DNA of 64,000 bases. Origin: Escherichia phage vB_EcoM-Ro157lw. A model generated the notes under the pieces. That model was not told the origin of the DNA. It saw nothing but the letters and a program-made list of their open reading frames with translations, and ran no database searches. Below are positions 15,866 to 56,932 of this stretch, piece by piece. The position numbers were made by a program, and so were the translations under genes. The stretch's first letter is position 1. Every line of letters starts with the position of its first letter. The stretch lies in the sequence record MH051335.1. The stretch is one strand, 5' to 3'.

Positions 15866-16136
15866 GTATAATGACGTATCATCCGTATCAAGTAAGTAGT
15901 TGTTTTCAAAAGAATCTTACGGATGATACGGATGATACGCGTTGCCGCGATAATTTATAGGAATTCAAATAAATTAATTTAAAATTATATATCTAATTTA
16001 ATTTTATTTTTTTATAAACTCTTATATATGAAAAGTATCCGTATCATCCGTATCATCCGTAGCACACCAGTGATAGCGCGGCTTATACACCGATACGGAT
16101 AAAAATACGCCTCATTTTATCCGTATCATCCGTATC
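15866..16136. repeat. iteron-like region: GTATCATCCG at 15876, 16041, 16050, 16123; inverted tandem CGGATGATAC at 15920 and 15929; ~90-bp AT-rich tract at 15951-16040
   Basis: Direct reading; coordinates anchored to ORF-track boundaries. Confidence 0.85.
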
Positions 16137-16194
16137 ACACTAATTAAGGCGCGGCTATATCGGTTGTTATACATATTCAAACCATAATTATTGT

Positions 16195-16223
16195 TTGCCT
16201 AAGTTTTTTTCATTAGATATAAT
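16195..16223 (+). promoter_or_regulatory. sigma70-like promoter TTGCCT-N17-TATAAT upstream of the scaffold/capsid genes
   Basis: Hexamers read directly, just after the iteron region. Confidence 0.4.
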
Positions 16224-16246
16224 ACACAATACTTATTTGAGGGTGG

Positions 16247-39747: not shown

Positions 39748-40340
39748 CACTCAAACTCCTTATTCATCACTTGTTCCATTGCATAGGCGTAAGCCTGATC
39801 AGTCGATTTGATAAACGTTCCGTTGTACATCACTCCTTTACGGTCCTTGATGTCTTCATAGGCGGCTTGAGCGCAATCAGACAGTCGAAGTCCATAATCA
39901 TGCGCTACGCCGGAAAGATAATCGACTGCGGCCATGATGGTGACATCAATATCCATACTCTGATTTTTAGCAATGGCGTCACCAAGCCGTCCGAGAGTCT
40001 TTGCCAAGCGAAGGATAAACGAGTGAGGGTGGGCACCTTTGTCAGCGCAACCGCCGCCGTTGATGTCTTCGATTTTTGCACCATTTTGCGCGGCAAGAAT
40101 AGTTAACACAACAAGGCAATCGCCGATGTCATCCTTGATTGCGGCTTGTAAATCACAGATGGCCTGCTCTGTATATCCGATTTCAGGGTCAAAGAACACA
40201 AGGTCATGTAATTGATCAATGTGGTCGGTCAACTCCCCAAACTCGCTAATAAGCTTCGGGTATTGGTCCTTAAGGTCGCAGCCTTGGATGATGTTACGGT
40301 CAGAAGCCCACTGGCGAATGTTTGCATAAATCTGGTTCAT
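39747..40340 (-). CDS. MazG-like nucleotide pyrophosphohydrolase (tentative)
   Basis: Acidic helical motifs ISEFGELTD and DDIGDCLVVLTILA; AAAGGA SD. Confidence 0.4.
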   Translation of the reverse strand: MNQIYANIRQWASDRNIIQGCDLKDQYPKLISEFGELTDHIDQLHDLVFFDPEIGYTEQAICDLQAAIKDDIGDCLVVLTILAAQNGAKIEDINGGGCADKGAHPHSFILRLAKTLGRLGDAIAKNQSMDIDVTIMAAVDYLSGVAHDYGLRLSDCAQAAYEDIKDRKGVMYNGTFIKSTDQAYAYAMEQVMNKEFE

Positions 40341-40912: not shown

Positions 40913-41773
40913 TTAAAACTCTTCTGCGTCGGTCGGAGTTTCATTAACAGGGCCAGCGGCACCGCTTGCTTCTTCCTGCTTGCTGCGGTCAATGTTAACG
41001 TTGCCGCCAACTACATCGTTGTGGAATGCTTTGGCGACTTCATACAGACCTTTGTCCTGCACCAGACCTTCCAGCTCAAACTTCAGAACTGACCAGGTGT
41101 TGCCATCTTTAGACTGAGACGCAGTACCCATGCGAACGATGTTCATGAAGGTCGGCGGAGTTTTCAGGCCCTGCGGAGTCTGAACTTTCTTCTGCTGCAG
41201 AGCGGTCATCAGCATGCGAGACGGCTTGATCATGGAAGAAGTCAGAGACAGCATTGCGCTACCAAATTCACCAGTTTCTTCGTTCAACAGGATCACAAAG
41301 TGGTTACGTGTATCTGCGTAGTAAGGTGATTTCTTCTCGTGCACCTTGCCGTTTTCGTCTGGCACAAACACCTTACCGTTGATTTCAACAGCGCGGCCTG
41401 CTGCGACTTCTGCATCAACGTGCTCTTTGGTGAATTCACCTTTAAAGCCTTTATCGTCGGACTCGCGACCGCCCCAAAGGATGAAGGTGCGTTTGAATGC
41501 GCAAGGGATGATCTGCACACCTTTCTTGCCGTCATACAATTCACCAGTAACGGTGTTGTACAACATACCAGCTTTTGCGCCAGGAACGTGTTTTGGATCA
41601 TCTTCGTCGACCATCGGAGACATCTTTTGCAGTACGACGATAAAAGGAATGGCATAAGCGTCGGCATCGGCACCTTCAAAGCCAGCGCCAAAATCGGTCA
41701 TGTCGACAAAATCAGCCATAGCGGACATCTGGGTGTTTTTCACTGCAACTTCGGTAGTTTCTTTCTTAGACAT
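40913..41773 (-). CDS. hypothetical protein with acidic C-terminal tail ending in Phe (SSB-like feature)
   Basis: C-terminus ETPTDAEEF. Confidence 0.4.
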   Translation of the reverse strand: MSKKETTEVAVKNTQMSAMADFVDMTDFGAGFEGADADAYAIPFIVVLQKMSPMVDEDDPKHVPGAKAGMLYNTVTGELYDGKKGVQIIPCAFKRTFILWGGRESDDKGFKGEFTKEHVDAEVAAGRAVEINGKVFVPDENGKVHEKKSPYYADTRNHFVILLNEETGEFGSAMLSLTSSMIKPSRMLMTALQQKKVQTPQGLKTPPTFMNIVRMGTASQSKDGNTWSVLKFELEGLVQDKGLYEVAKAFHNDVVGGNVNIDRSKQEEASGAAGPVNETPTDAEEF

Positions 41774-41832
41774 TTGATGTTTTCCTATAGTATCAAGTTT
41801 CGTGGCAACCTGATTTCAAGATAAAGGTTAAA

Positions 41833-42390
41833 TTACTTTTTGCTTTTAGGCAAGGTTATTTTAGCTTCTTTATACTCAAAAACGCTAATATCTTCACTAA
41901 CTGGATTACCCGCTTCCAGCTGTTCTTTTACAAATGACTTCAGTGTAGCAGAGTGAACGCCTTGTTTCAACGTGGCTTCAACACCATCTTCACGCAGCGC
42001 GGCAACAATCTCTTGCGCTTGCTCGATTTCTTCGCGACCGAACTCAGCCGTGACGCTGGACTTGATCAAGCCGCCGTAACCGTTGTTGACAAGCCAATCG
42101 AATACCTTCAATTCATTTTCTTTCTTGATTGAAGCATTGACTTTTGACTCGACCTTGATTTTGGTCTTGTCTTCAAGCTTGATTTCGGACACGCCAAGCT
42201 CATCCATGACGCCAGGAAGCAGAACAGTTTTGATTTCACTGATGCGCTGCTTTTGCATATCAGCTTCATCTTCAAGCTCTGTCAAAGCTTCTTGGCGCTC
42301 TGCCAATTCCGATACTAAGCGCGCAAGGCGCTCTTGGATGCTCTCAGGAGCGACCTGCGGCAAATCATCTTCCCAATTAATATTGCTCAT
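41833..42390 (-). CDS. hypothetical coiled-coil protein
   Basis: ORF track. Confidence 0.55.
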   Translation of the reverse strand: MSNINWEDDLPQVAPESIQERLARLVSELAERQEALTELEDEADMQKQRISEIKTVLLPGVMDELGVSEIKLEDKTKIKVESKVNASIKKENELKVFDWLVNNGYGGLIKSSVTAEFGREEIEQAQEIVAALREDGVEATLKQGVHSATLKSFVKEQLEAGNPVSEDISVFEYKEAKITLPKSKK

Positions 42391-42650
42391 ATTTTACCTT
42401 CTTGCATTAGCCCTTCAACACGGGTCATTTGATAACGTTCAGGTTTCCAAGCCGCCAAAGCCTTCTCAGCGCCTTTTAAGGTTTTATATGCCTTGATGCC
42501 AGGCATAATAACGGTATTCACCCCAGCACCGTTGCCATAATCAAACTCTTTTACAACGCGGAACATGCCGTCAATTTCTTTGACCAAAAGACGTTTGAAC
42601 GCGATTGCGCCAGTAGCTTCATTTTTGTAACGTTCAAGGATGCGTACCAT
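42387..42650 (-). CDS. hypothetical protein
   Basis: ORF track; AGAGGA SD. Confidence 0.55.
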   Translation of the reverse strand: MVRILERYKNEATGAIAFKRLLVKEIDGMFRVVKEFDYGNGAGVNTVIMPGIKAYKTLKGAEKALAAWKPERYQMTRVEGLMQEGKI

Positions 42651-42724
42651 TTTGTATTCCTCTATTTCGTTTCGATGAAGTAATTATGACTCATCTTCCG
42701 TGACAAGTCAAATTATTTTTGATA

Positions 42725-44248
42725 TTAATTCATCTTTTTGCCGTCGAGGATGTGATCAGCAAGCATTGACTTCATACTGAGTGAACGCTGAATTTCTTCG
42801 TCGATGGTATCAACACCAATAAAATCAACATACAACACGCTTGATTTGGTGCCGATGCGGTGATTTCGGTCTTCGGATTGCTTGCGCAACTCGTTATCGT
42901 AGTTGCAAGAATAATAAATTGCCAAGTCGGCGGCGGTAAGCGTGATGCCGATGCCTGCCGCTGCAGCGTGGCAAACCAAGACTTGCGTTCCGCCGTTCTC
43001 GACTGTATTCTTCTGGAAGTCATCAATTAAGAACTCTCGCTGCTCTTTGGACGTTTCACCATTGTATACACCAGTGACCACGCCTTCAGACTCAAGCCAG
43101 TCCTTAATCTGGTTCATCTCTTCCTTAAAGATGGCCCAAACGATGAATTTGCGCTCTGGGTCGTCTTCCAGCACACCTTCCACATAATCCTTAAAGGCCG
43201 TGAATCGTGGGTTGTCTTCCATGTAGACCATCTCATCATACACCTTAACAAAGCCGGATGTAACCTGCTTCATCTTAGTGCGAGACGCGATCATCTCAAA
43301 CTTGACGTTTTCTTCTTCGCCCTTGTATTCCATCAAATAGTTGTACTCATTCTTGAGTTCATCGTAAACATCACGTTGTTTAGGCGACAACTCGAAGTCG
43401 ATAAACTTGTACACCTTCTCTGGAAGGTCCGGCAAGTATTCCGCTTTTGTCGCACGAAAATAGTGCGGTTCCATCAGCCGGATAAGCTTGTCAAGGTTTT
43501 TGTACATCGGTCGACCAAACTGGTCTTTGCGCGGCACTTGCGGAATCCCATAACCATTGCCGCCGATTTTCTTGAGGATGGCTTGCATCTCTGGGTCGTG
43601 CGCTTCAAGTAGCACTGTAAATTCAGAGTTAAAGGCACGGAATGATTTGGTGCCGAGCAATCCTGCTTCAAGGAAGTGGTATTGCATGTAAATATCCGCA
43701 GGCGAGCGCGGCAACGGCGTGCCAGAAAGGATTCGACGGGCCTTTGCCAGCCGTCCCAATTCCACAACCTTGATGGAGCGTTTGGCTGTGTTATTCTTGA
43801 TGCGCGTTGATTCGTCGATGATCATCAGGCAGCGGTACTTCTTCAAGACCGACTCGATGTGTTGATAACCGACTGGTGTGTTGACAGTATCGATGTTGAA
43901 TGAGAAGATGCGCGCAGGCACTTCGCCTTCGGGGTAGTGATCAGCAAACATCTTCTCCCAAAGCGCCTTGCCCTTTTTAGTTTTCATCTTATCGTTGCCG
44001 CACCAGTAGTGCCCAATCCACTTGATGGAAAGGTGCTCTGGCGCTTCACGACGAATCCAGTTTGAGTGGACCCCGTTTGGAGCGATGACGACCATGGCGT
44101 CGAAAGCGCCAGCGGTGAAGTGCTTTTCAAACTCTGCCAAAGCGGTCCAAGTTTTACCAAGACCCTGTTCCATGAAATAGGCAAAGTATTTTCTGCGGCC
44201 TGCTTTATCAAGCGCCAGAAGCTGGTGGCGCATCCCTTGTGTTTTCAT
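42725..44248 (-). CDS. SNF2-family helicase
   Basis: DExx box MIIDESTRIKN, motif III ILSGTPL, motif VI QSEDRNHRIG. Confidence 0.8.
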   Translation of the reverse strand: MKTQGMRHQLLALDKAGRRKYFAYFMEQGLGKTWTALAEFEKHFTAGAFDAMVVIAPNGVHSNWIRREAPEHLSIKWIGHYWCGNDKMKTKKGKALWEKMFADHYPEGEVPARIFSFNIDTVNTPVGYQHIESVLKKYRCLMIIDESTRIKNNTAKRSIKVVELGRLAKARRILSGTPLPRSPADIYMQYHFLEAGLLGTKSFRAFNSEFTVLLEAHDPEMQAILKKIGGNGYGIPQVPRKDQFGRPMYKNLDKLIRLMEPHYFRATKAEYLPDLPEKVYKFIDFELSPKQRDVYDELKNEYNYLMEYKGEEENVKFEMIASRTKMKQVTSGFVKVYDEMVYMEDNPRFTAFKDYVEGVLEDDPERKFIVWAIFKEEMNQIKDWLESEGVVTGVYNGETSKEQREFLIDDFQKNTVENGGTQVLVCHAAAAGIGITLTAADLAIYYSCNYDNELRKQSEDRNHRIGTKSSVLYVDFIGVDTIDEEIQRSLSMKSMLADHILDGKKMN

Positions 44249-44667
44249 GACAATTCCTCTAAATACTTGATGATGTGATGGATGGACCCGCTCGCGGCGA
44301 CCATATCCAAAATCTCACCCTTAGTATATTCTTTTAATCGCAATGAAGGGTGAACTAAATAATAAGCCTTTTCAGAATCTACCTTCAGCAGCACAAATGA
44401 CGAGAACTTCCAATCATTCCAAGAAGTCAAAAAGCTTTGTTGGCCTTTCTCAAATGCACTTTTAAAAGGAAGAGTGGTGGCCCTTGCAGGCCACGATTCA
44501 AAAAACTTCATTTCAAGCCAAAAGCCGCGCCCTTTCCGGTTGGTGCCGATTACATCCGGCACACCATCACCCGTCATGGATTCGATTCTTTGAAGCTTCA
44601 GTACTGATTCTGAATGCTTCTTCAAAGGAACGAAAATGTATTTTTGTTCACGGTTATTTGTTGCCAT
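44245..44667 (-). CDS. VRR-NUC domain nuclease
   Basis: PD-(D/E)xK-type motif GVPDVIG...WLEMK; paired with SNF2 helicase. Confidence 0.6.
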   Translation of the reverse strand: MATNNREQKYIFVPLKKHSESVLKLQRIESMTGDGVPDVIGTNRKGRGFWLEMKFFESWPARATTLPFKSAFEKGQQSFLTSWNDWKFSSFVLLKVDSEKAYYLVHPSLRLKEYTKGEILDMVAASGSIHHIIKYLEELS

Positions 44668-45310
44668 CTGGATACACCTGTTTGATCACGTCGACTATAA
44701 ACATGTCAATGCCTTCAAGCTTTCGACCTTTCATCAGGAAGAATGCACCGTTCCCGACGTTCTCTGCAATGTATTTCCCGTATTTCTGGAACTTCTCTGG
44801 ACGAATCCTGAAGCGCATTGGCGAGTCGGTCGAGTCGTCCTTGCACATAAGGTCGATGAACTGAGTTTCAAGCTTGTTTCCATACTGATCAAACTCTGCG
44901 TAGCGGCCATCGGCCTGAAGACCCTTTTTAAGCTTGCCGTGCTTTGTATAAATGCCGCGCTCAAGACGTTTACGGATGCGTGTTGCTTCGTTCTCGTCAG
45001 CCAGCACTTTCTTGGTCAACTTGCCGATTACTATTGCACGCTCGTCATCGCCGACTTCCTTCATCTGACGTATTGAAGCACCGGAAGTAACGCCAATCAG
45101 ATAGGGGTCATTATACGCCCAGCCAAACTTGGTGTGCATCTCTGTAAGGTCGCCGTATTTGACTTCAGCATTGGCCAATGCATCCTTTTGTTTTTGCGTT
45201 AAGGTTCCGGCTTCACGTGCTTCGATGTACTTCATCGCTTTCACCATTCCGTACCCTTTAGCGTTCATGATGCCGCCAATTAGCTTTCCGTTAGCGATTG
45301 GCCAATGCAT
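44654..45310 (-). pseudogene. C-terminal fragment of the DnaE-like polymerase, separated from the main ORF by a frameshifting 127-bp tandem duplication
   Basis: N-terminus repeats the last 42 aa of ORF 45291..47678 (IANGKLIGGIMNAKGYGMVKAMKYIEAREAGTLTQKQKDALAN); no usable SD at its ATG. Confidence 0.65.
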
Positions 45311-45424
45311 CCTTTTGTTTTTGCGTTAAGGTTCCGGCTTCACGTGCTTCGATGTACTTCATCGCTTTCACCATTCCGTACCCTTTAGCGTTCATGATGC
45401 CGCCAATTAGCTTTCCGTTAGCGA
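45171..45424. repeat. perfect tandem direct duplication, 2 x 127 bp (45171-45297 and 45298-45424)
   Basis: Identical copies read directly; consistent with the ORF-track break. Confidence 0.9.
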
Positions 45425-47678
45425 TGGTCCAGTTCATTGAAGAGTGATCAGGGTCGATTGGCACATAATCCACGCCTTCCTTTGCAAGTTCACGTAATAT
45501 CGCAATCGTCTGGTCTTCGTCCTTGGCAGCGCGTAAGCAAGCAGCGGCAAATTCCAACGGATAGTGTCGTTTAAGCCACAAGGTCCAGTAGGTCACGACC
45601 GCGTATGATACGGAGTGTGACTTGTTAAATCCCCATGACCCGAACGTCGCCATTGCTTGCCAAAGCTTTCTTGCATCAGCTTCCGGTACGCCGTTATTTA
45701 TTGCGCCTGCAACGAAGTCTTCGCCAAGCTTGTTAAAGTATTCCTCACCCTTACGGCCTGACATCGCCTTACGTACAGCGGATGTCTTCGCCCAGTCAAA
45801 TGAACCAATCTCTTTAACCACGGCCATGATTTGCTCTTGGTAAAGAAACACGCCGTAAGTCTCTTTTAAGTACGGCTCAAGCTGCGGCACGTCGTACTCA
45901 ATCGGCGCACGTCCTGCCGCGCGTTCGATGTATTTCTGGGCCATACCGGATGACAACGGGCCAGGTCGGCCAAGTGCTGTCAGGTTATCGATTTTGTTAA
46001 AGTTATCAACGTGCACAAAGTTGGTTACTGAGCGTACAGCGTCGCCTTCGAACTGGAAGATTCCTGACATCTTATTTTCGTTAAGGATGTCAAGGACGCT
46101 TTGATCATTGAGCTTGATTCCGTACAGTGTTTCAGCATCTATCACGCCAGTATCAGAAATGATGCCGAGGGTACGAAGGCCCAATGCATCAAGCTTCAAA
46201 AGGTTAAGGTATTCGCTGTCAGGCTTATCAATTTGTGCAATCCCTTCCGCCGTTACCGTACAGTAATCAGAGATTGGATCATTACACACGATGATTCCCG
46301 CTGCGTGAACGCCAGTGTGGGAAGGGTGAATTTCAAGGTCACCCATGCATCGCGCGGCATCAGGATATTTAGCCACAAACTCTTGGCCCGTGGTCGTTGT
46401 TGCAAAGGTGTCCTCCAGGCCGTGGCCATAACGGGCGTCACCGGATGAGTATTCAAGCAATGCGTTTTTAATGTTGGCCGTTTCGTGATATCCAATGTTG
46501 AATTTCTTACCAACCTGAGCCATTACTGAGTTGGCCTTAAGCGTGTTGATGTTGCCAAGCTTTGCAACGTTCATTTCGCCGTATTTTTCTTTAAGGTAAT
46601 CAAACACCATATAGCGTTTGGTATCCTCAAAGTCAATATCAATATCAGGAAGGTCTGCGCGGCTTACGTCAATGAATCGGGCAAACAGTAGCTTATACGG
46701 GATTGGGTCAACTTCCGTGATGCCGAGGCAATAACAAACCAGTGAACCAGCCGATGAGCCGCGAGCGGGTCCGACGAGCATTTTTGTTTTTGCGAATCGT
46801 ACAAGGTCCGCTACCACCAGAAAGTATGAGTCGAAATCTTTCAGCTGAATCTGGTGAATCTCTTCGTTGAATCGGTCCTCATATTCCTGAGTCCATTCTT
46901 TGATGTGGCCTGCCTTAAGGCGGTACTCCATCCCCTCACGAGCAAGCTTTACCATGTCACCAGCAAGGTGGATAATCGGTGCCTTGCGCAGCTTCAGGTC
47001 AAGTCCCACGATTCCGTTTGCAATGTCAACTGCATTGGCCGTTGCTTGATTCAACTCATCTTCGGTCAATATTCCTTTAAGCTGTTTGCGCAAGTCTTCC
47101 GCGTCAACGATACAGTGCGGCTTGACCGTGTCGCGCACTTCCCAAGCATAAGCAAAGTCAACGTGCTCAGGTGAAGGCATGTGGTTGTATCCGGTTAAAA
47201 CCAGCGGCCTTCCGTTGCTGCGGTGAGCCAATACCTGGCGCTTGGCCAAAAGGAACGATGATGGGTTGACGTCTATATAATCGTAGTCCTCTGGCCGCAG
47301 CAACTCCACGGCCCCGCCACAGAATTTAACGACGCCATCGAGCGCCCCGAACTCTGCACGGGTCAGTCCGCCGCGCTGTGTTGCAAGCGTGGTCGCGTTG
47401 TAAAAGGATTTCAGGTCAAGCGCCAATATCCAAGCCTTCGGTTTGAATCCCTTTTTCGGGTCCGCATCAGGGTCGATGATTGGAATTTCCATGCCGAACA
47501 TAGGCTTAATATCATTTTTCTGGCACTCCTTTTCCCATCGAACGTGACCCCATGTATTGTTATCAACTAATGCCGCGACTTCGCAGCCCAACTCTTTGAG
47601 CCGTGCTATAATTTCAGGATGCCGTCCATATACTTCTTTGAACGTGTAACCGCTGCGAACTCTCAATTGTGGAAACAT
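45291..47678 (-). CDS. dnaE: DNA polymerase III alpha-like (DnaE, C-family) catalytic subunit, interrupted at its 3' end
   Basis: Motifs GPARGSSAGSLVCYCLGITEVDP, GIFQFEG, FNKSHSVSYA; PHP-like N-terminus. Confidence 0.8.
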   Translation of the reverse strand: MFPQLRVRSGYTFKEVYGRHPEIIARLKELGCEVAALVDNNTWGHVRWEKECQKNDIKPMFGMEIPIIDPDADPKKGFKPKAWILALDLKSFYNATTLATQRGGLTRAEFGALDGVVKFCGGAVELLRPEDYDYIDVNPSSFLLAKRQVLAHRSNGRPLVLTGYNHMPSPEHVDFAYAWEVRDTVKPHCIVDAEDLRKQLKGILTEDELNQATANAVDIANGIVGLDLKLRKAPIIHLAGDMVKLAREGMEYRLKAGHIKEWTQEYEDRFNEEIHQIQLKDFDSYFLVVADLVRFAKTKMLVGPARGSSAGSLVCYCLGITEVDPIPYKLLFARFIDVSRADLPDIDIDFEDTKRYMVFDYLKEKYGEMNVAKLGNINTLKANSVMAQVGKKFNIGYHETANIKNALLEYSSGDARYGHGLEDTFATTTTGQEFVAKYPDAARCMGDLEIHPSHTGVHAAGIIVCNDPISDYCTVTAEGIAQIDKPDSEYLNLLKLDALGLRTLGIISDTGVIDAETLYGIKLNDQSVLDILNENKMSGIFQFEGDAVRSVTNFVHVDNFNKIDNLTALGRPGPLSSGMAQKYIERAAGRAPIEYDVPQLEPYLKETYGVFLYQEQIMAVVKEIGSFDWAKTSAVRKAMSGRKGEEYFNKLGEDFVAGAINNGVPEADARKLWQAMATFGSWGFNKSHSVSYAVVTYWTLWLKRHYPLEFAAACLRAAKDEDQTIAILRELAKEGVDYVPIDPDHSSMNWTIANGKLIGGIMNAKGYGMVKAMKYIEAREAGTLTQKQKDALANR

Positions 47679-48220
47679 TATTTACTCCAGATGTCATATA
47701 CGCCAATTTGTTGGCAGACTTTGTGCAGTAATATTACGTCGTCTAATGCACGGTGCTTCTGTTCATATTTTCCGAAATATAATTCATACAGCTCTTGAAG
47801 CTTAACTCTTCGGCCAAAAATAGGCAAGGTTTGCTCGACTGTACAAATGTTTATTTCTGGAAAATTAACATCACCAAGTGTAAGACCTTCGCGCTGTAAT
47901 GCATAATCAAGGATGTTCTTATCGAATGCATGGTTGTGCGCGATAGTGGCATCAGTCTTCTTGAAGATGTCTTTTAGTTGCGGAACGAAATGAATAAAGG
48001 GTGGATTGCACTCAAGGTCTTCATTGGTTAATCCGGTAATCTTTGTGATGATTTCTTCAATCACAATTTCAGGATTAATTATGAACTCGAACGTTTCAAG
48101 AATCTCTTTGCCGTCCGTCAACAGGCCTGCAAATTCAATAGGGCGCGGCTGCATCCCAAGCGGTGCTTTCGGGTGCACGGTTAATCCGGTTGTTTCGAAG
48201 TCATAAGGGAGAAATAACAC
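47678..48220 (-). CDS. DnaQ-like 3'-5' proofreading exonuclease
   Basis: Exo I YDFETTGL, Exo II AHNHAFD, Exo III HRALDD; GTG start with AGGAGG SD. Confidence 0.8.
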   Translation of the reverse strand: MLFLPYDFETTGLTVHPKAPLGMQPRPIEFAGLLTDGKEILETFEFIINPEIVIEEIITKITGLTNEDLECNPPFIHFVPQLKDIFKKTDATIAHNHAFDKNILDYALQREGLTLGDVNFPEINICTVEQTLPIFGRRVKLQELYELYFGKYEQKHRALDDVILLHKVCQQIGVYDIWSK

Positions 48221-48273
48221 ATTGGCCTCCTACAAAAGGCCGCCCATTAGGACGGCCACAGATTCAAGATTCG

Positions 48274-48825
48274 TTATGCAGTGTACGGAGTACCATCTTG
48301 ATTCAACCGCACGATGAACTTAAGGTCGACGCCGATGATTTCACGCGTATCAAAGATCACATAGTTGTAACGACGCTGACCAGCAATATTTGGGTTGGTG
48401 TGAGAGTCAGTTACAACTTCCTGCGCAACCTGAATGCCTTCTTCTTTAAAGAACTTGCGCCATTCAGCGAGTTCAGCGGCAGTCACGTGCATACCAAGAT
48501 GGCTAACCTGATTGTCGTGTGCATCAATATATTCGATGTTTTCGTTAATCCAGTTGCGACCTTTCGTGTAGTCAAGAATTTCAAGTTCAAGAGGCTTACC
48601 AGCGCCGCCATCGGTGCCGTTGCCAGCTTGATAGTTGAAGCGCAAGTCAGCTTCGTTGGTGCAATCGCCGCGCTGACCTTTAAAGTCATCAGCTTCAAAT
48701 ACGCGACCAGTAGCAACAACATGATCATGGAACCATTCTGTCAGGCCGATTTTAGCCAGAAAATCCTGTGCGCGCTGAGCATCTGGAATTGACAGGGCGA
48801 TTTGTTCAATTTTAAAGTGTGGCAT
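48274..48825 (-). CDS. VOC/glyoxalase-fold protein (tentative)
   Basis: N-terminal pattern KIEQIALSIPDAQRAQDFLAKIGL. Confidence 0.35.
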   Translation of the reverse strand: MPHFKIEQIALSIPDAQRAQDFLAKIGLTEWFHDHVVATGRVFEADDFKGQRGDCTNEADLRFNYQAGNGTDGGAGKPLELEILDYTKGRNWINENIEYIDAHDNQVSHLGMHVTAAELAEWRKFFKEEGIQVAQEVVTDSHTNPNIAGQRRYNYVIFDTREIIGVDLKFIVRLNQDGTPYTA

Positions 48826-48845
48826 TTTGTTTCCTTAATTAAATA

Positions 48846-49016
48846 TTATTGATTAATTACTGTGTTGCCTTCGATGGAATAAGTCTCAATGGAACCGACG
48901 CGCTCGTGGTTAATCTTTGCGTTTTCGATTCTTATTACTTCAAATCCAACGCCTTCTTGATCAATCTTCACTTCTGCCACGTCGCCAATCACTTCTACAA
49001 CAACTTTGATAGTCAT
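48846..49016 (-). CDS. small hypothetical protein (56 aa); below ORF-track size cutoff
   Basis: ATG 3 nt downstream of SDR stop; GGGAAA SD-like. Confidence 0.35.
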   Translation of the reverse strand: MTIKVVVEVIGDVAEVKIDQEGVGFEVIRIENAKINHERVGSIETYSIEGNTVINQ

Positions 49017-49019
49017 GAT

Positions 49020-49703
49020 TTATTTCCCAAATGGAATATCAGTACCAGACATAAAGCGCCATGCGCCCGTAATTAAGATATGGCGAATGAAGTCAGCAAT
49101 TACTTGCGGCTCAGTCTCCAATCCGTTCATCAATGCCTTTTTCTGGTATTCAGCGGCATACTCAGGAGTCCAGCCGCGAGTCGCGCAAACAGCATCTTCA
49201 ATCTGTTTGGACATGCCAGTACCACGTAGCTTGTTAGGACTAATAGAGAATACCGTGATCCCGTATTTAGGCGTAAGCTCGTGAGCCATCTGCTTGCTAA
49301 TCATAAGCGCAGCAGCCTTGGATGCATTATAACACAAGCTGGACGTCATAGGAATATGCGCAGCATTAGAAACGATATTGATCACAAAACCTTTGTTGTC
49401 GATAAGACTTTTCAGCGCGGCCTGAGTCGTGTTGACGAAAGAGAAGGCGTTGGTGTGCATAACGCGATTGAACTCTTCGTAGTTAACATCTTCGAACCAG
49501 TTGTTGGAGTTGACGCCAGCGCAGTTGATCAAGCCTTCTACGTCGTATTGAGAGAGAAGCTCTTTCATCTGTTTCGCGTTACGGATGTCATAGCCGTTCT
49601 CCAAATCAATACCGACAACTTCATGACCGTAAGCGCCAAGGGTGTCAAAAATGGATTTACCAAGACCGGAATTGCAGCCAGTTACAACAATTACTTTTTT
49701 CAT
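49020..49703 (-). CDS. short-chain dehydrogenase/reductase (SDR)
   Basis: TGxxxGxG (VTGCNSGLGKS), NCAG, YNASK catalytic motif. Confidence 0.7.
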   Translation of the reverse strand: MKKVIVVTGCNSGLGKSIFDTLGAYGHEVVGIDLENGYDIRNAKQMKELLSQYDVEGLINCAGVNSNNWFEDVNYEEFNRVMHTNAFSFVNTTQAALKSLIDNKGFVINIVSNAAHIPMTSSLCYNASKAAALMISKQMAHELTPKYGITVFSISPNKLRGTGMSKQIEDAVCATRGWTPEYAAEYQKKALMNGLETEPQVIADFIRHILITGAWRFMSGTDIPFGK

Positions 49704-49724
49704 TTATTTATCCTTTTTGGACTT

Positions 49725-49758
49725 CGTTTCGATGAGATAAATATAACTCATCGAAACG
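49725..49758 (-). promoter_or_regulatory. 12-bp perfect inverted repeat CGTTTCGATGAG / CTCATCGAAACG with 10-bp spacer in the SDR gene leader
   Basis: Direct reading; 13-mer TTCGTTTCGATGA also at 42666-42678. Confidence 0.5.
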
Positions 49759-49768
49759 CACAAGTAAA

Positions 49769-50641
49769 CTATTTATTGAAATTAATATTATGGGTGTTAA
49801 CAAGACGTTCACACATGGCGCTGTAAACACCATCATCGTGTATAGAGTCTTCGTGCTTCAGGCCGCTGATTGCGAAGCGTGTAAGCTTGACAATCTTAAG
49901 CTCGAACAGATGCCACATGTGGTAGTCTTCCGGCGTTTTCAACGTCACGCCATTAGGGAAAAGCACTTGCATAACCTGACCTACCATCACAGCGTTATCG
50001 CCATAGACAGCGTTGCGCTCACGGAAGGTTGCTGCCATTGCATCAAGAATATCGGCGGCAGTTGCCGGAGATTGTTCAACTTCCACAGCCTTAGTCTCTT
50101 CTTGCCCTGTTGCGCTTGGATCAATTGCTAATTGTTGCACCACTTCACCTGCCTTGCAAAGATTAAATGTAAAAGCGATTTTATTTTGAGCAACGGAATT
50201 ATAATACAATGCTTCATCTTGCATCCGCGCGAGTACGTCTTGTCGGTCGTCGAATACATTGATGATTCGATAATCGCCGTGCCGCAATGCGTGCGATAGC
50301 CATGCAGATTTCATAATAGTTGATGGACGTTTGTCGCCATAGTCTCTCATCTTGATTGTAAATTCATCAAAAGGAAAAACATTATCCAGACGTTCAAAAG
50401 TCACTTGTCTGTATTTTTCTGGCCTTGCAGTCCAATATTCAACCGCCTCACCGCGAAGAGATGCCGACTCTACTGCTGATGCAATGTGAGGATAGAACTG
50501 ATCATAACCAATACCGCTGTGATAGTCATCATAGTCTGACGACGGACCTGCCACCTTTATGCGGTCTAAGCGCCAACGGTCATCAAACAGCGTTCCGTCA
50601 AGGTCGAATACATTTAAGATTTCGCTGTTTTTAATGCTCAT
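49769..50641 (-). CDS. HAD-superfamily phosphatase-like protein with extra C-terminal domain
   Basis: Motif I VFDLDGTLFD and later DD motif. Confidence 0.55.
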   Translation of the reverse strand: MSIKNSEILNVFDLDGTLFDDRWRLDRIKVAGPSSDYDDYHSGIGYDQFYPHIASAVESASLRGEAVEYWTARPEKYRQVTFERLDNVFPFDEFTIKMRDYGDKRPSTIMKSAWLSHALRHGDYRIINVFDDRQDVLARMQDEALYYNSVAQNKIAFTFNLCKAGEVVQQLAIDPSATGQEETKAVEVEQSPATAADILDAMAATFRERNAVYGDNAVMVGQVMQVLFPNGVTLKTPEDYHMWHLFELKIVKLTRFAISGLKHEDSIHDDGVYSAMCERLVNTHNINFNK

Positions 50642-51468
50642 CCTTTTGATACTCCATCTTTAGCAACTGGATTGTTGGTGATTGGCATCGCACTCCAAAA
50701 CTGGATGCGCAACTCTTCTTGCTGTGCCGTGGTATCCATCCAATCACGATACCAAGGGCAATGGGCTTTGCCATGACGAGGAAACGCGCATTTACCCATA
50801 CCGATGCATTGCGGCTGTAATAATGGATTTGCCCACGGGTGCACCTTGAGGACTTCCGCAACCATTGCGCGGAATACTTCTTGATACTCGCCTTGAGTGC
50901 GCGTGCACAAGCGGTTTGACGCCATCTGCTGCAGCGTGCGCAAGTTGAACTTTGCCATGATATGCGTTTGCATATTAGAAGGCAACACGGCACGTGCATC
51001 TTGAATCTCTGCGCCAGCCGCGCGAAGCTCTTGATACAAAGCATCGATAGTCGCCATCGCATCATCCCACTTCTCTGCTAAGTATTGCTTTTGAAGTAAA
51101 GATTGGTGCTCTTCATCAGTCCCAAACGCTTCACATTGATCAATCAACTCTGGATTTTGGTGTGAGAATGCCTTCGGACGAATCGCATCAAATGCAGACG
51201 ACTCCTGAGCGCGGCTGGTACGTTCTTGATATGCGCCTGTGCGTGTGCGCACCATCTGATGGGTCATGTTCTTTGAAACATCGGTGATGTCAAAGATATA
51301 GTCCACAAAGTCAAAAGGCGACTTGATTGTATCAAGCATGTAGCGCCAGTGCTCTTGCTTCTCTGATTCCGTCATCTCAGAGACAGGCTTGCCAGTCATG
51401 CGCGTGTTCTTTGTTTCCAGCAAAAGGTCAAGTGCATCTTGGGTGTATCGAATTAATTTAACTTTCAT
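50638..51468 (-). CDS. ThyX-like flavin-dependent thymidylate synthase homolog (divergent RTR in place of RHR)
   Basis: VRTRTGAYQERTSR aligns to the ThyX RHRxxxxxxxS region. Confidence 0.5.
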   Translation of the reverse strand: MKVKLIRYTQDALDLLLETKNTRMTGKPVSEMTESEKQEHWRYMLDTIKSPFDFVDYIFDITDVSKNMTHQMVRTRTGAYQERTSRAQESSAFDAIRPKAFSHQNPELIDQCEAFGTDEEHQSLLQKQYLAEKWDDAMATIDALYQELRAAGAEIQDARAVLPSNMQTHIMAKFNLRTLQQMASNRLCTRTQGEYQEVFRAMVAEVLKVHPWANPLLQPQCIGMGKCAFPRHGKAHCPWYRDWMDTTAQQEELRIQFWSAMPITNNPVAKDGVSKG

Positions 51469-51481
51469 TTTAATTATCCTA

Positions 51482-51928
51482 TTAACGGTAGTTCACTAGT
51501 TGCTGATCACCAGAGAAGGTGCAATGATAAACAAATTGTGCATTATAAAGCAACTGAAAACTTTTCTTTGGTTCACTATTAGCACTCATCGATGTGAATA
51601 CTTCTGCACCGGAACGGTTTTCACCGATTAAGTTGACAAAGCCGCCAGTTGTGCGAGGTTGAACGAAAGTGAAACGTTGCATCCACGGAGTCCGGTTGAC
51701 ACCTTTTCCGGTGAATCCTTGAATCTGAATATTCAGACCTTCTTGCTCATTCACACCGATGTAAGTGGTAATCTTCGCACCAGTCGTTGCTGCGGTCTTA
51801 CCGTCCATCGCTTCGCAATCATAAACAGCGATTGAATCGGAAGTACGGATGGCAGCTTCAGTCGCTTCCATATACATGGTGCCGAGAATAGCAGTTGCGG
51901 CAAGCGCGATTCCAGTGATTCGTTTCAT
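51482..51928 (-). CDS. secreted protein (signal peptide, two Cys)
   Basis: N-terminus MKRITGIALAATAILG. Confidence 0.5.
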   Translation of the reverse strand: MKRITGIALAATAILGTMYMEATEAAIRTSDSIAVYDCEAMDGKTAATTGAKITTYIGVNEQEGLNIQIQGFTGKGVNRTPWMQRFTFVQPRTTGGFVNLIGENRSGAEVFTSMSANSEPKKSFQLLYNAQFVYHCTFSGDQQLVNYR

Positions 51929-51993
51929 TTTCGTTTCCTCTATGAGTTCTGCTTCAATGATTAAAGTATACGCCCATTGAAGCAGAAAGCAAA

Positions 51994-52989
51994 TTATTTA
52001 TTAGCAATATAAGCAAATTTTTGATAGTTATTTGCTTTGATGAGTTTTTCAACTTCAACAAGATCATGAGCGACGTCATCAAGCAAAATGTTTCGCCAGG
52101 TAGCAAATCGACCGACACTAAACACGTTCAAATCCATAGTCAGCTGCAGGAGTAAGGCGTGTCGCAAGTCTTTCGGAATGTCGACAATCTTTCCATATTT
52201 CTGGTCGACCTTTTCAACTTCTTCAAGAGCGATGTCACTCCATGAGAGGCCAAATGCCGTCAGCACCTCGTCGACTTCTGCGCGCAGCTTGATGTCACGG
52301 TAACGAGTGATGCCGCCAGCGGCTTCAACTGCAGCTTCACTTACGCTGACCAAAGGAATTGTTTCAATGATAAGCGTGTCACCAGTAATTGATGCGCGGT
52401 AAGTTCTGACGGAGTAGTCAGGGAAGTAAATTGTCTGATACAAATCACACTTACGTTTAATCTTAAAGCGGTAAACACGAATGTTTGCTTTATCAAATGA
52501 GAAATCAAGCTTTTGATCAATCCCAGCCAGCTTCATCATGACTGGCAGCGGCGACGTGTTGATGATTGGCGTCTCGCTATAGCCGCAAAGAGTATCAACC
52601 GGAGTATTAAAGAATATGCGGTCACCCAGTTTGTCGACAAGCTGATCATAAAAGTCATCAGGCGCAATATAACGCGTTGCAGTCTTAAGATTCATGATTG
52701 AACGGCTGCCAAACTGATTGGTGACCTTCATGGAATACATATTGGCAAGGTTGATTGGGCAATGGTCGTGGTAGTAGTTGCCGCGAAAATACACAGCCTT
52801 GTCAACTGTCACTGCCTTAAAAGGGATTCCGGTAATACGGCTTACTTCTTCGCCACGGAAGCGTAGCAGCGCCTTGTGCTGTTGCGCTCGCTCCCCTGCT
52901 TCGTACACAACAGAGTTCGGGAAGTGACACGCTGTGATAAGTCCTGCCAATCCGCCGCCGATAATCATTACAGGTTGTTTCATGTTCAT
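51994..52989 (-). CDS. FAD/NAD(P)-binding oxidoreductase (possibly UDP-galactopyranose-mutase-like)
   Basis: N-terminal GxGxxG MIIGGGLAGL; C-terminal GRFATW motif. Confidence 0.5.
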   Translation of the reverse strand: MNMKQPVMIIGGGLAGLITACHFPNSVVYEAGERAQQHKALLRFRGEEVSRITGIPFKAVTVDKAVYFRGNYYHDHCPINLANMYSMKVTNQFGSRSIMNLKTATRYIAPDDFYDQLVDKLGDRIFFNTPVDTLCGYSETPIINTSPLPVMMKLAGIDQKLDFSFDKANIRVYRFKIKRKCDLYQTIYFPDYSVRTYRASITGDTLIIETIPLVSVSEAAVEAAGGITRYRDIKLRAEVDEVLTAFGLSWSDIALEEVEKVDQKYGKIVDIPKDLRHALLLQLTMDLNVFSVGRFATWRNILLDDVAHDLVEVEKLIKANNYQKFAYIANK

Positions 52990-53121
52990 TTGTCCTTTGT
53001 GGGTGATATGAGAAGTATAATAGCTAAATTATTTTACAGCAACAAGTCATTTTATTTAGTACAGATGAAAAAAGACCCACAACAAGTGTGGGTCAATTAC
53101 CGCTGCATAACCGTCCTAAGG

Positions 53122-53967
53122 TTATTCCGCTTGATCACCGTCTTCGGCATCTTCGTTGGATTCAACATCGACAAACTCGATGTGGCCCATCTCTTCCAGC
53201 TTGCTCAGGTAGGAGCGAACGGAAGCGCCAAACAGTTGATCTTTAACTTTTTCGCCCAGCTCATCGATAGACTGCGCCACGCCAACTTCGCCTTCTTTGA
53301 TCGCCGCCAGAACGCGTCCACGGGTGGAATGCTCTTGCGGCTGGCTCAGGCCATTGCCAGTGTAGATGAAGTGGGTTGCTTTTGCGCGACGCTGACCGTT
53401 TGCCTTTTTAGCAGCCTTACGTTCTGCGATGGCTTTGCGACGTTCTTCAGCTTCTTTCTTACGCTGTTCTTTCTGCTTTTCTGCAGCTTCTTTAGCCGCA
53501 ATCTTAGCAGCTTCACGCTCTGCCTTGCGTTTCGCTTTAGCTTCTTCTTTGGCCTTCTCTTTTTCGGCCTTCGCTGCAGCACGGGCTTGATCACGCTCTG
53601 CTTTCTTAGCAGCAGCTTGTTCAGCTTTCAGGCGCTTGGCTTCTTCTTTGGCCTTTGCCTTTTCGATTTCTTTTGCTGCTTTAGCGGCTTCACGCTCTGC
53701 TTTCTTAGCAGCTGCTTTTTCTGCACGCTCTTTGGCTTTCTTCGCTGCTTCTTCAGCACGTTTCTGTGCTTTCTCATCAGCGGCCTGCTTGCGTTTCAGT
53801 GCAGCTTCTTCACGCTTGGCTTGTTTTTCCTGCTCACGCTTCTGGCGTTTTTCTTCGGCTTCTTTCTTTTTAGCCAGGCGTTTTTCTTCAGCCACGCGAC
53901 GACGTTCTGCTGCAGCTGCTTGTTTTTCTTCTTTAGATAATACTTTGATTGCTTCGGCCATATTCAC
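53122..53967 (-). CDS. Lys/Glu/Ala-rich charged-helix protein with C-terminal globular domain
   Basis: ~190 aa of KAE-rich low-complexity sequence; AAGGA SD; same strand as all neighbours. Confidence 0.6.
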   Translation of the reverse strand: MNMAEAIKVLSKEEKQAAAAERRRVAEEKRLAKKKEAEEKRQKREQEKQAKREEAALKRKQAADEKAQKRAEEAAKKAKERAEKAAAKKAEREAAKAAKEIEKAKAKEEAKRLKAEQAAAKKAERDQARAAAKAEKEKAKEEAKAKRKAEREAAKIAAKEAAEKQKEQRKKEAEERRKAIAERKAAKKANGQRRAKATHFIYTGNGLSQPQEHSTRGRVLAAIKEGEVGVAQSIDELGEKVKDQLFGASVRSYLSKLEEMGHIEFVDVESNEDAEDGDQAE

Positions 53968-56874: not shown

Positions 56875-56875
56875 T

Positions 56876-56903
56876 TTGCTTTTATTTTTCTAGCAACTAT
56901 AAT
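56876..56903 (+). promoter_or_regulatory. sigma70-like promoter TTGCTT-N16-TATAAT
   Basis: Hexamers read directly. Confidence 0.4.
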
Positions 56904-56932
56904 CATTTTATGAACTGAAGCAGAGGTTATTT

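What the first reader, a model, noticed from the sequence alone, without database searches (positions are those of the whole stretch)
49723..49758. Shared TTCGTTTCGATGA hairpin element in the leaders of two leftward genes
The 13-mer occurs at 49723-49735 (as part of a perfect 12-bp inverted repeat with 10-bp spacer, upstream of the SDR gene) and at 42666-42678 (upstream of gene 42387..42650, with a weaker partner arm). Both lie 20-40 nt upstream of the SD on the minus strand, suggesting a common regulatory or RNA-processing site.
Basis: seen in the sequence. Interest (0 to 1): 0.35.

Follow-up and report, generated by a model that had tools for sequence, protein, structure and literature searches.

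The report
Phage promoter start-site box, once hairpinned
The repeated 13-mer is most likely the transcription-start segment of two host-type (sigma-70) promoters in a Wifcevirus coliphage; the same "-10, four bases, box" unit recurs in unrelated enterobacterial phages, and at one site an upstream complementary copy forms a hairpin of a kind that evolves like an RNA stem in T1-like phages.

Summary
TTCGTTTCGATGA is exact at 42666-42678 and 49723-49735, and 49725-49736/49747-49758 is a perfect 12-bp inverted repeat with a 10-bp spacer. A shared 13-mer alone is not rare (about 46 chance pairs per window). The context is what is significant. On the minus strand both copies begin exactly 4 nt after the -10 box of a sigma-70-like promoter (TTTACT-17-TATATT; TTGACT-17-CATAAT), so they span about -2 to +11. 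The window is a Wifcevirus coliphage, and both modules are almost invariant in 28 genomes. The unit "-10, N4, TCATCGAAACGA, SD, ATG" also occurs in T1-like Drexlerviridae, a Klebsiella Jedunavirus and other viral contigs, in front of unrelated genes. It resembles the mapped starts of T7 promoters A1 and A3. It is not a hairpin shared by both leaders: only site A pairs the full box, and the 5' arm lies in the promoter spacer, upstream of the predicted start. In orthologous Drexlerviridae modules this hairpin shows compensatory and G·U changes and favours the sense strand, which points to RNA made by read-through. No transcript data exist. Verdict: a modular promoter/leader element; moderately interesting, mainly because it extends the unexplained 21-nt repeats of T1-like phages.

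The parts
49763..49768 (-). Promoter A, -35 hexamer TTTACT. It follows directly after the TAG stop of the upstream phosphatase/PNK gene and is preceded by an AT-rich stretch shared with promoter B.
   Evidence: Consensus scan, (TTTACT-17-TATATT, 9/12); coordinates; alignment.
49740..49745 (-). Promoter A, -10 hexamer TATATT. It lies in the 10-nt loop of the inverted repeat.
49723..49735 (-). The 'box': TCATCGAAACGAA on the sense (minus) strand, starting 4 nt after the -10. The predicted start is A at 49733, so the box spans about -2 to +11 and the leader is 30 nt.
   Evidence: Same register in 33 independent viral-contig modules. The mapped T7 A1 and A3 starts have ATCGA.. and AT-GAAACGA at +1.
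49747..49758 (-). The 'anti-box': CGTTTCGATGAG, the 5' arm of the perfect 12-bp inverted repeat. It lies in the -35/-10 spacer (about -25 to -14).
   Evidence: RNA fold -22.1 kcal/mol, z -4.95. One genome (SP13) has C>T at the outermost base, which gives U·G in sense RNA.
49725..49736 (-). 3' arm of the inverted repeat, CTCATCGAAACG (about -3 to +9). It overlaps the box.
49701..49715 (-). SD AAGGA (49711-49715) and ATG (49701-49703) of the FabG-like SDR gene (49020-49703).
42706..42711 (-). Promoter B, -35 hexamer TTGACT.
   Evidence: TTGACT-17-CATAAT, 10/12.
42683..42688 (-). Promoter B, -10 hexamer CATAAT.
42666..42678 (-). Second copy of the box TCATCGAAACGAA, 4 nt after the -10. The predicted start is A at 42676 and the leader is 26 nt.
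   Evidence: The stretch from -10 to ATG matches T1-like phages at 87-89% and Klebsiella phage 1611E-K2-1 at 81%.
42690..42695 (-).
   Evidence: The predicted minimum-energy fold instead pairs TGACTTGTC with GAUGAGUCA across the -35/-10 region.
42648..42662 (-). SD GAGGA (42658-42662) and ATG (42648-42650) of the 87-aa gene (42387-42650; phrog_27467, no Pfam family).
51947..51993 (-). Promoter C, with the same architecture but a different sequence: -35 TTTGCT (51988-51993), 13-bp perfect inverted repeat TTCTGCTTCAATG / CATTGAAGCAGAA (51975-51987 and 51947-51959) around -10 TATACT (51965-51970). The 3' arm starts at the predicted start site.
   Evidence: (-19.1 kcal/mol, z -3.57). One variable column in 65 across 8 genomes.
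56875..56924 (+). Promoter D (rightward): TTTGCT-17-TATAAT, sharing TGAAGCAGA (56916-56924) with the 3' arm of C. Weak, possibly a second box type.
   Evidence: The 9-mer is generally over-represented in the window, so this is only suggestive.

Best explanation
The 13-mer (sense strand TCATCGAAACGAA) is the start-site and initial-transcribed box, about -2 to +11, of two sigma-70-type promoters read by the host RNA polymerase. PA sits in front of the FabG-like SDR gene and PB in front of an 87-aa gene, inside the leftward replication and nucleotide-metabolism block of a Wifcevirus.

It belongs to a modular unit, '-10 hexamer, 4 nt, TCATCGAAACGA, short A/C-rich leader, SD, ATG', that is shared among unrelated phages of enterobacteria. 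In that unit it would fix the start (C-1/A+1), supply a favourable initial transcribed sequence and give an unstructured leader. This last sentence is inferred, not shown.

At PA the promoter spacer carries the exact complement of the box, here called the anti-box. RNA that starts at PA begins inside the 3' arm and has no hairpin. RNA that reads through from the upstream promoter PC (no terminator lies between) contains both arms and folds into a 12-bp hairpin with the -10 hexamer in its loop. That hairpin would mark the junction between cistrons and mask the box. Whether it acts in processing, stability or attenuation is not known.

Shown: sequence, register, conservation, cross-phage distribution, and covariation in homologous modules. 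Inferred: the start sites, the RNA-level role at site A, and the function of the box.
For: Promoter reading:
- Both sites are called as -35/17/-10 promoters in short gaps directly upstream of SD+ATG.
- All regulatory gaps of the block are far better conserved (1.5-9% variable columns) than the coding flanks (12-17%). The box is invariant.
- In 242 independent occurrences of TCATCGAAACGA in viral contigs, a -10-like hexamer lies at offset 4 in 33 cases, against 2-8 at every other offset from 0 to 12.
- 25 of 25 occurrences with SD+ATG downstream have offset 4.
- Of 13 modules without the T1-type repeat, 10 have a canonical -35, mostly at exactly 17 bp, against 7% of background hits.
- T7 promoters A1 and A3, with annotated mapped starts, begin ATCGAGAGGG and ATGAAACGAC. 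PA and PB would begin ATCGAAACGAA. A3 also has a dyad over its -10.

Modularity:
- The stretch from -10 to ATG of PB matches T1-like phages at 87-89% in front of an unrelated 61-aa gene. It matches a Klebsiella Jedunavirus in front of a truncated homologue of the 87-aa gene.
- There is no match in 5,426 E. coli genomes.

Hairpin as a sense-strand RNA structure:
- T1 modules chosen only by their 21-nt repeat fold with z below -2 in 15 of 18. The sense strand is more stable than the antisense in 17 of 18.
- Nine orthologous Drexlerviridae modules with the box as 3' arm and the -10 in the loop are 89.5% paired, against 25-55% with slid partners.
- Their covariation score is 0.185 against 0.127±0.017 in shuffles (2/500).
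- They show one compensatory pair (G-C x5, U-A x4), a G-C/G·U/A-U series and invariant G·U pairs.
- In that set all changes are in the 5' arm and N4, while the box is invariant. This indicates a sequence-specific role for the box beyond pairing.
- At site A the only stem change seen (SP13) converts C-G to U·G on the sense strand.
Against: - No transcript 5' or 3' ends are available for any Wifcevirus, so the start sites are predictions.
- Within Wifcevirus the stems do not vary, so the covariation comes from Drexlerviridae modules and is carried over by analogy of design.
- The stems of A and C are perfect Watson-Crick and fold equally well on both strands, so nothing in the window itself separates RNA from DNA.
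- The covariation sample is small (9 sequences) and the structure was derived from those same sequences.
- The hairpin at A has no U-tract and is short for RNase III, so no concrete RNA mechanism is identified.
- In T1-type modules the TTGYTA of the repeat lies 22 bp from the -10, too far for a normal -35. Their promoter status is therefore itself unsettled, although many have a TGn extended -10.
- Hits to the box were collected with exact 14-mers, so the conservation of the box in those hits cannot be assessed from them. Only T1 gives an unbiased, more degenerate view: YCATMRAMAACGA.
Confidence: 0.55

Rival explanations
1. The inverted repeat at A is the operator of a dimeric DNA-binding regulator (phage or host) that covers the -10 box and shuts the promoter off. 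B would be a weaker one-and-a-half-site operator of the same protein, so the two genes are co-regulated.
For: A perfect 12-bp dyad is centred at about -8.5 with arms 22 bp apart centre to centre, flanking the -10. The inner GATGAG-N10-YTCATC is kept at both A and B. The dyad is invariant in 28 genomes. Promoter C has a similarly placed dyad whose arm resembles the box, TCATTGAAGC against TCATCGAAAC.
Against: - The same -10/N4/box unit occurs in unrelated phage families that are unlikely to share a regulator.
- Homologous modules carry promoter-specific dyads of unrelated sequence in Myosmarvirus and T1.
- Those dyads evolve through G·U intermediates and favour one strand, which a double-stranded operator would not do.
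- The degenerate half-site is not enriched in the window (22 hits against 24 expected), and the exact hits are the ones it was derived from.
- No DNA-binding domain was found in neighbouring proteins and no regulator is annotated in relatives.
- The module does not occur in E. coli genomes.
Confidence: 0.15
2. One reading: a hairpin in the 5' leaders of both mRNAs that serves as a common RNA-processing or stability site.
For: The site A hairpin is strong as RNA (-22.1 kcal/mol, z -4.95). Both elements lie just upstream of an SD.
Against: - Site B has only a 6-bp partner, and its predicted fold leaves the 13-mer unpaired.
- The 5' arm at A lies in the promoter spacer, upstream of the predicted start, so transcripts from PA would lack it.
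- Leaders from the predicted starts are unstructured (z -0.66 and +0.07).
- No Rfam family matches.
Confidence: 0.1
3. The dyads act as DNA structures. One version is a supercoil-driven cruciform or non-template-strand hairpin that presents the -10 as single-stranded DNA. Another is a hairpin initiation signal for the phage's RepB'-like primase.
For: The -10 hexamer lies in the loop in A, C and many T1 modules. The sense-strand bias would also fit a non-template-strand DNA hairpin. The phage encodes RepB-like primases according to the annotation of relatives.
Against: - Most homologous stems are only 6-9 bp and include G·T pairs, which is poor for cruciform extrusion.
- The elements sit at fixed promoter and SD positions in front of genes, not at an origin-like region.
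- No resemblance to known primase signals could be tested.
- The most origin-like region of the window is elsewhere (15961-16246).
Confidence: 0.1
4. The shared 13-mer has no function of its own. It is a remnant of a promoter duplication or gene conversion, and the inverted repeat at A is fortuitous.
For: About 46 exact 13-mer pairs are expected by chance in this window. A and B are similar over about 75 nt, as after a duplication.
Against: - The box is invariant while adjacent positions vary.
- It has the same register in 33 independent modules of other phages.
- Perfect inverted repeats of 12 bp or more are expected about 0 times.
- The SD-proximal leaders of A and B are each orthologous to different MyoSmar leaders, so the promoters pre-date the A/B similarity.
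Confidence: 0.07

Closest known systems
Phage T7 early promoters A1 and A3 (E. coli RNA polymerase)
   Same: They are strong sigma-70 promoters of a lytic coliphage. The mapped starts read C|ATCGAGAGGG (A1) and C|ATGAAACGAC (A3), against predicted C|ATCGAAACGAA at PA and PB. A3 has a small dyad (GGTAC-gat-GTACC) over its -10. The window's early promoters P1 and P2 carry ATCGAGAGGGG, the A1 start.
   Different: There is no wider sequence homology. The T7 dyad is 5 bp, not 12. The distance from the -10 to the start differs by 1 nt. No function is known to me for the shared start sequence. The resemblance is short and could be convergent.
The 21-nt intergenic direct repeats of T1-like phages (aaATAGCACnnnTTGnTAAAA; TLS paper, PMC11447400)
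   Same: The repeats lie about 76 nt upstream of start codons, in the direction of transcription. I find that they are followed by a dyad, a -10-like hexamer, N4 and the same box (or a degenerate YCATMRAMAACGA), then SD+ATG. So PA and PB share the downstream half of these modules.
   Different: The 21-nt repeat itself is absent from the window (6 hits against 7.4 expected). Wifcevirus uses an ordinary -35 at 17 bp instead. The paper describes only the 21-nt repeat and lists its function as an open question.
PeSL (promoter-early stem-loop) cassettes of T4-type phages (PMC2839356, PMC4122927)
   Same: These are small composite units of a stem-loop, a sigma-70-like promoter with an AT-rich upstream region, an SD and a start codon. 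They are found in front of diverse small genes and are proposed to mediate modular shuffling. The box module likewise precedes unrelated genes in unrelated phages.
   Different: In PeSLs the stem-loop lies just upstream of the promoter and acts as a terminator. Here the dyad brackets or fills the -35/-10 spacer, has no U-tract at A, and its 3' arm is the start-site box. No conserved start-site box is described for PeSLs in the passages I read. The phage group is different.
Sigma-70-like promoters of Pbunavirus 14-1, the nearest studied relative (ONT-cappable-seq, PMC10914365)
   Same: The phage has no RNA polymerase of its own. There are 26 mapped sigma-70-like promoters, many driving short overlapping transcription units, which fits internal promoters plus read-through.
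   Different: The host is Pseudomonas. Its second motif class (CTGGG core) is unrelated. No box or dyad is reported. More distant relatives of the window lack the PA gap altogether.

Membership tests
Sigma-70-dependent bacterial/phage promoter | -35 and -10 hexamers close to TTGACA/TATAAT with a 16-18 bp spacer | tested here: met
   A is TTTACT-17-TATATT (9/12) and B is TTGACT-17-CATAAT (10/12). Such matches are common by chance (19 found against 15 expected in the region), so this feature alone is weak.
Sigma-70-dependent bacterial/phage promoter | Placed in a non-coding gap upstream of an SD and start codon, co-oriented with the gene, and conserved | tested here: met
   The gaps are 65 and 74 bp. 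They have 4-6% variable columns against 12-17% in the flanking genes across 8 genomes.
Sigma-70-dependent bacterial/phage promoter | Experimentally mapped transcription start or promoter activity | not testable with these tools
   No Wifcevirus transcript data were found. The starts at 49733 and 42676 are predictions from the -10 position and from analogy with T7 A1 and A3.
T1-like 21-nt-repeat module (Drexlerviridae) | The repeat aaATAGCACnnnTTGnTAAAA upstream of the gene | tested here: not met
   A pattern search of the window allowing up to 3 mismatches gave 6 hits against 7.4 expected, none at promoters.
T1-like 21-nt-repeat module (Drexlerviridae) | Downstream part: -10-like hexamer, N4, TCATCGAAACGA-type box, SD, ATG | tested here: met
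   Blastn of module B against T1-like phages gave 87-89% identity over 46 nt.
PeSL composite promoter/terminator cassette (T4-type phages) | A stem-loop acting as terminator just upstream of the promoter | tested here: not met
   The dyad at A spans about -25 to +9 around the -10 and is followed by AAGTCCAAAAAGG with no U-tract. PeSL description.
PeSL composite promoter/terminator cassette (T4-type phages) | Association with gene shuffling: the same cassette in front of different genes | tested here: inconclusive
   The module precedes unrelated genes in Wifcevirus, T1-like phages and Jedunavirus. No recombination junctions were analysed.
Intrinsic (rho-independent) terminator | GC-rich stem followed by a U-tract | tested here: not met
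   The terminator scan does not call 49725-49758 on either strand. There is no T run after either arm.
Operator of a dimeric repressor | The same dyad sequence at the co-regulated promoters, and a cognate DNA-binding protein | tested here: not met
   B keeps only 6 of 12 bases of the second half-site and C has different arms. No DNA-binding domain was found in 19 distinct neighbouring proteins, and none is annotated in Bas100.
Any curated RNA family (Rfam 15) | A covariance-model match | tested here: not met
   No hit at E up to 1 in window 41500-53000. No gathering-threshold hit in the whole T1 genome.

The most novel reading that the evidence does not exclude
A mobile 'promoter-in-a-hairpin' cassette shared across phage families. 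A host-type -10 hexamer sits in the loop of an RNA hairpin whose invariant 3' arm is the transcription-start box and whose 5' arm is a freely drifting anti-box. Each gene would then be made as two mRNA isoforms: an own-promoter RNA with a free box at its 5' end, and a read-through RNA with the box masked in a hairpin. The box would have a sequence-specific function of its own. The unexplained 21-nt repeats of T1-like phages would be the upstream end of the same cassette.
Probability: 0.3. Interest if true: 0.6.

Novelty: new variant of a known kind. Interest (0 to 1): 0.42.

Why it matters
For this phage group, it gives the first concrete promoter map of the replication block (PA, PB, PC, PD and others) with predicted start sites that one 5'-end mapping experiment can check.

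More widely, a precisely positioned start-site box (-10, N4, TCATCGAAACGA) and its pairing partner form a unit shared by Wifcevirus, Drexlerviridae, a Klebsiella Jedunavirus and other contigs, in front of unrelated genes. [quoted passage not shown] The analysis shows those repeats are only the upstream end of a larger promoter/hairpin/leader module whose hairpin evolves like RNA.

If the box proves functional, it is a compact, portable expression part for E. coli. It would also be a marker for annotating transcription units in many coliphage genomes.

Tried and rejected
- Rfam: no hits on the window region (E up to 1) or on the whole T1 genome.
- Host site: blastn of modules A and B against 5,426 complete E. 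coli genomes found no match. A host transcription-factor site copied from the chromosome is therefore unlikely.
- Trans factor: Pfam and PHROGs on 19 distinct proteins, mostly encoded in the replication block around promoters A-D, found no DNA- or RNA-binding domain. The Bas100 annotation lists no regulator.
- Degenerate half-site TCATYGAARC: not enriched (22 against 24 expected). The exact hits are the sites it was built from, so the test is circular.
- TGAAGCAGA: over-represented generally (41 against 21), probably codon bias, so the C/D link is weak.
- Covariation within Wifcevirus: not possible, because the stems are invariant in 28 genomes.
- Intermediate relatives: the metagenome scan gave one more Wifcevirus and one contig cut off before the upstream region. 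More distant relatives have no gap at PA.
- A broad scan for any hairpin ending in CATCGA was too noisy and was discarded.
- Alignment A2 contained a typing error of mine in one row and was replaced by A3.
- Complementarity of the box to 16S rRNA was considered, judged likely to be chance-level, and not tested.
- Sense/antisense folding of the window's own modules is uninformative because the stems are perfect.

Full report
**What the window is.** The 10 kb around the finding is 94-97% identical to Escherichia phages FEC19, WFH, ECML-117 and the BASEL phages Bas98-101 (genus Wifcevirus, about 68-kb myophages). More distant relatives are Myosmarvirus (Serratia and Erwinia) and the PB1-like Pseudomonas phages. 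The two sites lie in a block of leftward replication and nucleotide-metabolism genes:
- Site A lies between a phosphatase/polynucleotide-kinase gene and a FabG-like short-chain dehydrogenase (the SDR confirmed by Pfam).
- Site B lies between an SNF2-type helicase and an 87-aa gene of unknown function (no family found for the 87-aa protein).

**The observation.** The 13-mer is exact at 42666-42678 and 49723-49735. At A it is part of a perfect 12-bp inverted repeat, 49725-49736 with 49747-49758, with a 10-bp spacer. At B only GATGAG/TTCATC can pair.

A shared exact 13-mer is not rare: shuffles of the window give 46±10 such pairs. The significance comes from context:
- The two gaps align over about 75 nt. 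The local score is 31, against 9.1±1.4 in shuffles and at most 23 against other promoter gaps.
- Perfect inverted repeats of 12 bp or more with short loops are expected about 0 times.

**Anatomy on the sense (minus) strand.**
- Both sites are sigma-70-like promoters in short gaps: TTTACT-17-TATATT (A) and TTGACT-17-CATAAT (B). Each is preceded by a shared AT-rich stretch and followed by SD and ATG.
- The 13-mer, read as TCATCGAAACGAA, begins exactly 4 nt after the -10 in both. With the usual 7-nt distance, the start would be the A of TC|ATCG, at 49733 and 42676. The box then covers about -2 to +11.
- The other arm at A (CGTTTCGATGAG) fills the promoter spacer at about -25 to -14, and the -10 is in the loop.
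- Promoter C (51947-51993) has the same layout with unrelated arms.
- A transcript starting at A would therefore contain only the 3' arm. Leaders from the predicted starts are unstructured (z -0.66 and +0.07). The full A hairpin folds at -22.1 kcal/mol (z -4.95). The best fold of B leaves the 13-mer unpaired.
- The element is therefore not a hairpin shared by both leaders.

**Conservation.** Across eight Wifcevirus genomes, all regulatory gaps of the 18-kb block are much less variable (1.5-9% of columns) than the coding flanks (12-17%). The box is invariant at both sites while neighbouring bases change. The only stem change at A is C>T at the outermost 5'-arm base in phage SP13, which keeps a U·G pair on the sense strand. 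All 28 database genomes carry both modules at 95-100% identity.

This shows selection, but it leaves no variation for a covariation test within the genus. Myosmarvirus has promoters at the orthologous positions with homologous SD-proximal leaders, but each has its own GC-rich dyad in the spacer. Their stems are invariant between species while their loops vary. More distant relatives lack the A gap. The metagenome scan added no usable intermediates.

**The element is not confined to Wifcevirus.** Blastn with module B hit T1-like Drexlerviridae at 87-89% identity over the stretch from -10 to ATG, and a Klebsiella Jedunavirus at 81%.
- In the T1-like phages the module precedes an unrelated 61-aa gene.
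- In the Klebsiella phage it follows a helicase and precedes a truncated, unannotated homologue of the 87-aa gene.
- Scans of viral contigs for two 14-mers containing the box gave 242 occurrences with enough flanking sequence. A -10-like hexamer lies at offset 4 in 33 of them, against 2-8 at every other offset from 0 to 12.
- All 25 occurrences with SD+ATG downstream have offset 4.
- Twenty of the 33 unique modules carry the T1-type upstream repeat. Ten of the other 13 have a canonical -35, mostly at exactly 17 bp, against 7% of background hits.
- Neither module occurs in 5,426 E. coli genomes.

**Links to what is known.**
- *T7 early promoters.* The T7 record, with its annotated start sites, shows A1 starting ATCGAGAGGG and A3 starting ATGAAACGAC. 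A3 has a small dyad over its -10. PA and PB would start ATCGAAACGAA. The window's early promoters near 2.0-2.5 kb carry ATCGAGAGGGG.
- *T1-like 21-nt repeats.* The TLS paper reports 18 intergenic 21-nt repeats (aaATAGCACnnnTTGnTAAAA) about 76 nt upstream of start codons in T1-like phages, of unknown function, and lists this as an open question (PMC11447400). In T1 itself, modules picked by that repeat alone continue with a dyad, a -10-like hexamer (often with TGn), N4 and a degenerate box YCATMRAMAACGA. The window lacks the 21-nt repeat.
- *PeSL cassettes.* The PeSL cassettes of T4-type phages are the closest described concept: a composite of stem-loop, sigma-70 promoter, SD and ATG, thought to mediate gene shuffling. 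There, however, the stem-loop lies upstream of the promoter and acts as a terminator (PMC4122927).
- *Pbunavirus 14-1.* The nearest studied relative uses host polymerase with 26 sigma-70-like promoters and overlapping transcription units (PMC10914365). I found no paper on Wifcevirus promoters and no relevant paper containing the box sequence.

**DNA operator or RNA hairpin?**
- T1 modules fold better than shuffles in 15 of 18 cases (median z -3.2). The sense strand is more stable than the antisense in 17 of 18 (mean 3.1 kcal/mol), which is the signature of G·U pairs.
- An orthologous series between a VRR-NUC gene and a 64-aa gene in Drexlerviridae has the A-type design, with the box as 3' arm and the -10 in the loop.
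- In nine distinct sequences, 89.5% of cells are paired, against 25-55% with slid partners.
- The covariation score is 0.185, against 0.127±0.017 in shuffles (2/500) and at most 0.052 when slid.
- One pair is fully compensatory (G-C x5, U-A x4), another runs G-C/G·U/A-U, and three pairs are invariant or near-invariant G·U.
- All nine are 5-10 kcal/mol more stable on the sense strand.
- All changes lie in the 5' arm and N4, and the box never changes.
- This favours a single-stranded, sense-strand structure, most simply RNA, over a protein operator. It also implies that the box has a sequence-specific role of its own.

The sample is small and the structure was derived from these same sequences. 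The window's own stems are perfect and say nothing about strand.

**Best explanation and its limits.** The 13-mer is most likely the start-site and initial-transcribed box of two host-polymerase promoters, and part of a modular promoter/leader unit exchanged among enterobacterial phages. At A (and, with other sequences, at C) the spacer carries the complement. RNA reading through from the upstream promoter would then fold into a hairpin with the -10 in its loop, while RNA started at A would not. No terminator was found between C and A.

The start sites, the RNA-level role at A and the function of the box are all inferred. What the hairpin does (processing, stability, attenuation or masking of the box) is unknown.

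Rivals:
- Repressor operator over the -10 (0.15).
- A DNA-structure role (0.1).
- A functionless duplication remnant (0.07).

**Verdict.** In kind it is a variant of known composite phage promoter cassettes. Its interest lies mainly in its distribution across phage families and its link to the unexplained T1-type repeats.

Noticed in passing
window 45170-45423: A perfect 127-nt tandem duplication lies inside the DNA polymerase III alpha gene. Relatives have a single 2898-nt dnaE, but here there are two overlapping ORFs (44654-45310 and 45291-47678). Since 127 is not a multiple of 3, this is either a real frameshifting duplication or an assembly artefact. The 10-kb query is about 126 nt longer than its match in FEC19.
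   Followed up: partly
window 15961-16246 (inverted repeat at 16092-16127): A 286-bp AT-rich gap is packed with ATCCGTATC iterons and contains the only other perfect long inverted repeat of the window (13 bp, GATACGGATAAAA). It looks like an origin or packaging region.
   Followed up: no
window 1889-2112 (both strands) and 2416-2522 (+): Three copies of an approximately 90-nt early-promoter module occur here: AAAAAGTGCTTTACTT...TATAAT...TATCGAGAGGGG. Its start region equals the T7 A1 initial transcribed sequence ATCGAGAGGG. It is followed by a conserved leader hairpin (GGGATGAGGTAGCGAATAGGTCGCTACC).
   Followed up: partly
L005 (MyoSmar) about 6620-6650, 9170-9200, 16055-16085; same places in L029 and L030: The orthologous Myosmarvirus promoters each carry their own GC-rich dyad between -35 and -10, for example TTGACG-ATGGCGC-tatta-GGCGCCAT-AAT. 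The stems are invariant between species and the loops vary.
   Followed up: partly
L332 (phage T1) and viral contigs L124-L317: In T1-type modules the TTGYTA of the 21-nt repeat is always 22 bp from the -10-like hexamer, too far for a normal -35. Many hexamers have a TGn extended -10. Some dyads coincide with terminators annotated in the T1 record (for example 39998-40024).
   Followed up: partly
window 48826-48845 and flanks: This is the only hypervariable spot in the 18-kb replication block among eight Wifcevirus genomes (88% variable columns). It reflects presence or absence of a small ORF downstream of the SDR gene.
   Followed up: no
window 49716-49722: The leader of promoter A has a poly-A length polymorphism (A5, A6 or A7) between the box and the SD among Wifcevirus genomes.
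   Followed up: no
window 42387-42650; L090 2558-2671: The 87-aa gene behind promoter B (phrog_27467, no Pfam family) is shared at about 81% nucleotide identity with unrelated siphophages such as CAjan. Klebsiella phage 1611E-K2-1 has an unannotated, truncated 37-aa homologue behind the same module and a helicase gene.
   Followed up: partly
window 53393-53900: A family of 20-35-nt direct repeats spaced at multiples of about 33 and 99 nt lies inside an ORF at 52876-53940, a stretch that some relatives annotate as a 'TolA'-like protein. This looks like a repetitive coding sequence.
   Followed up: no
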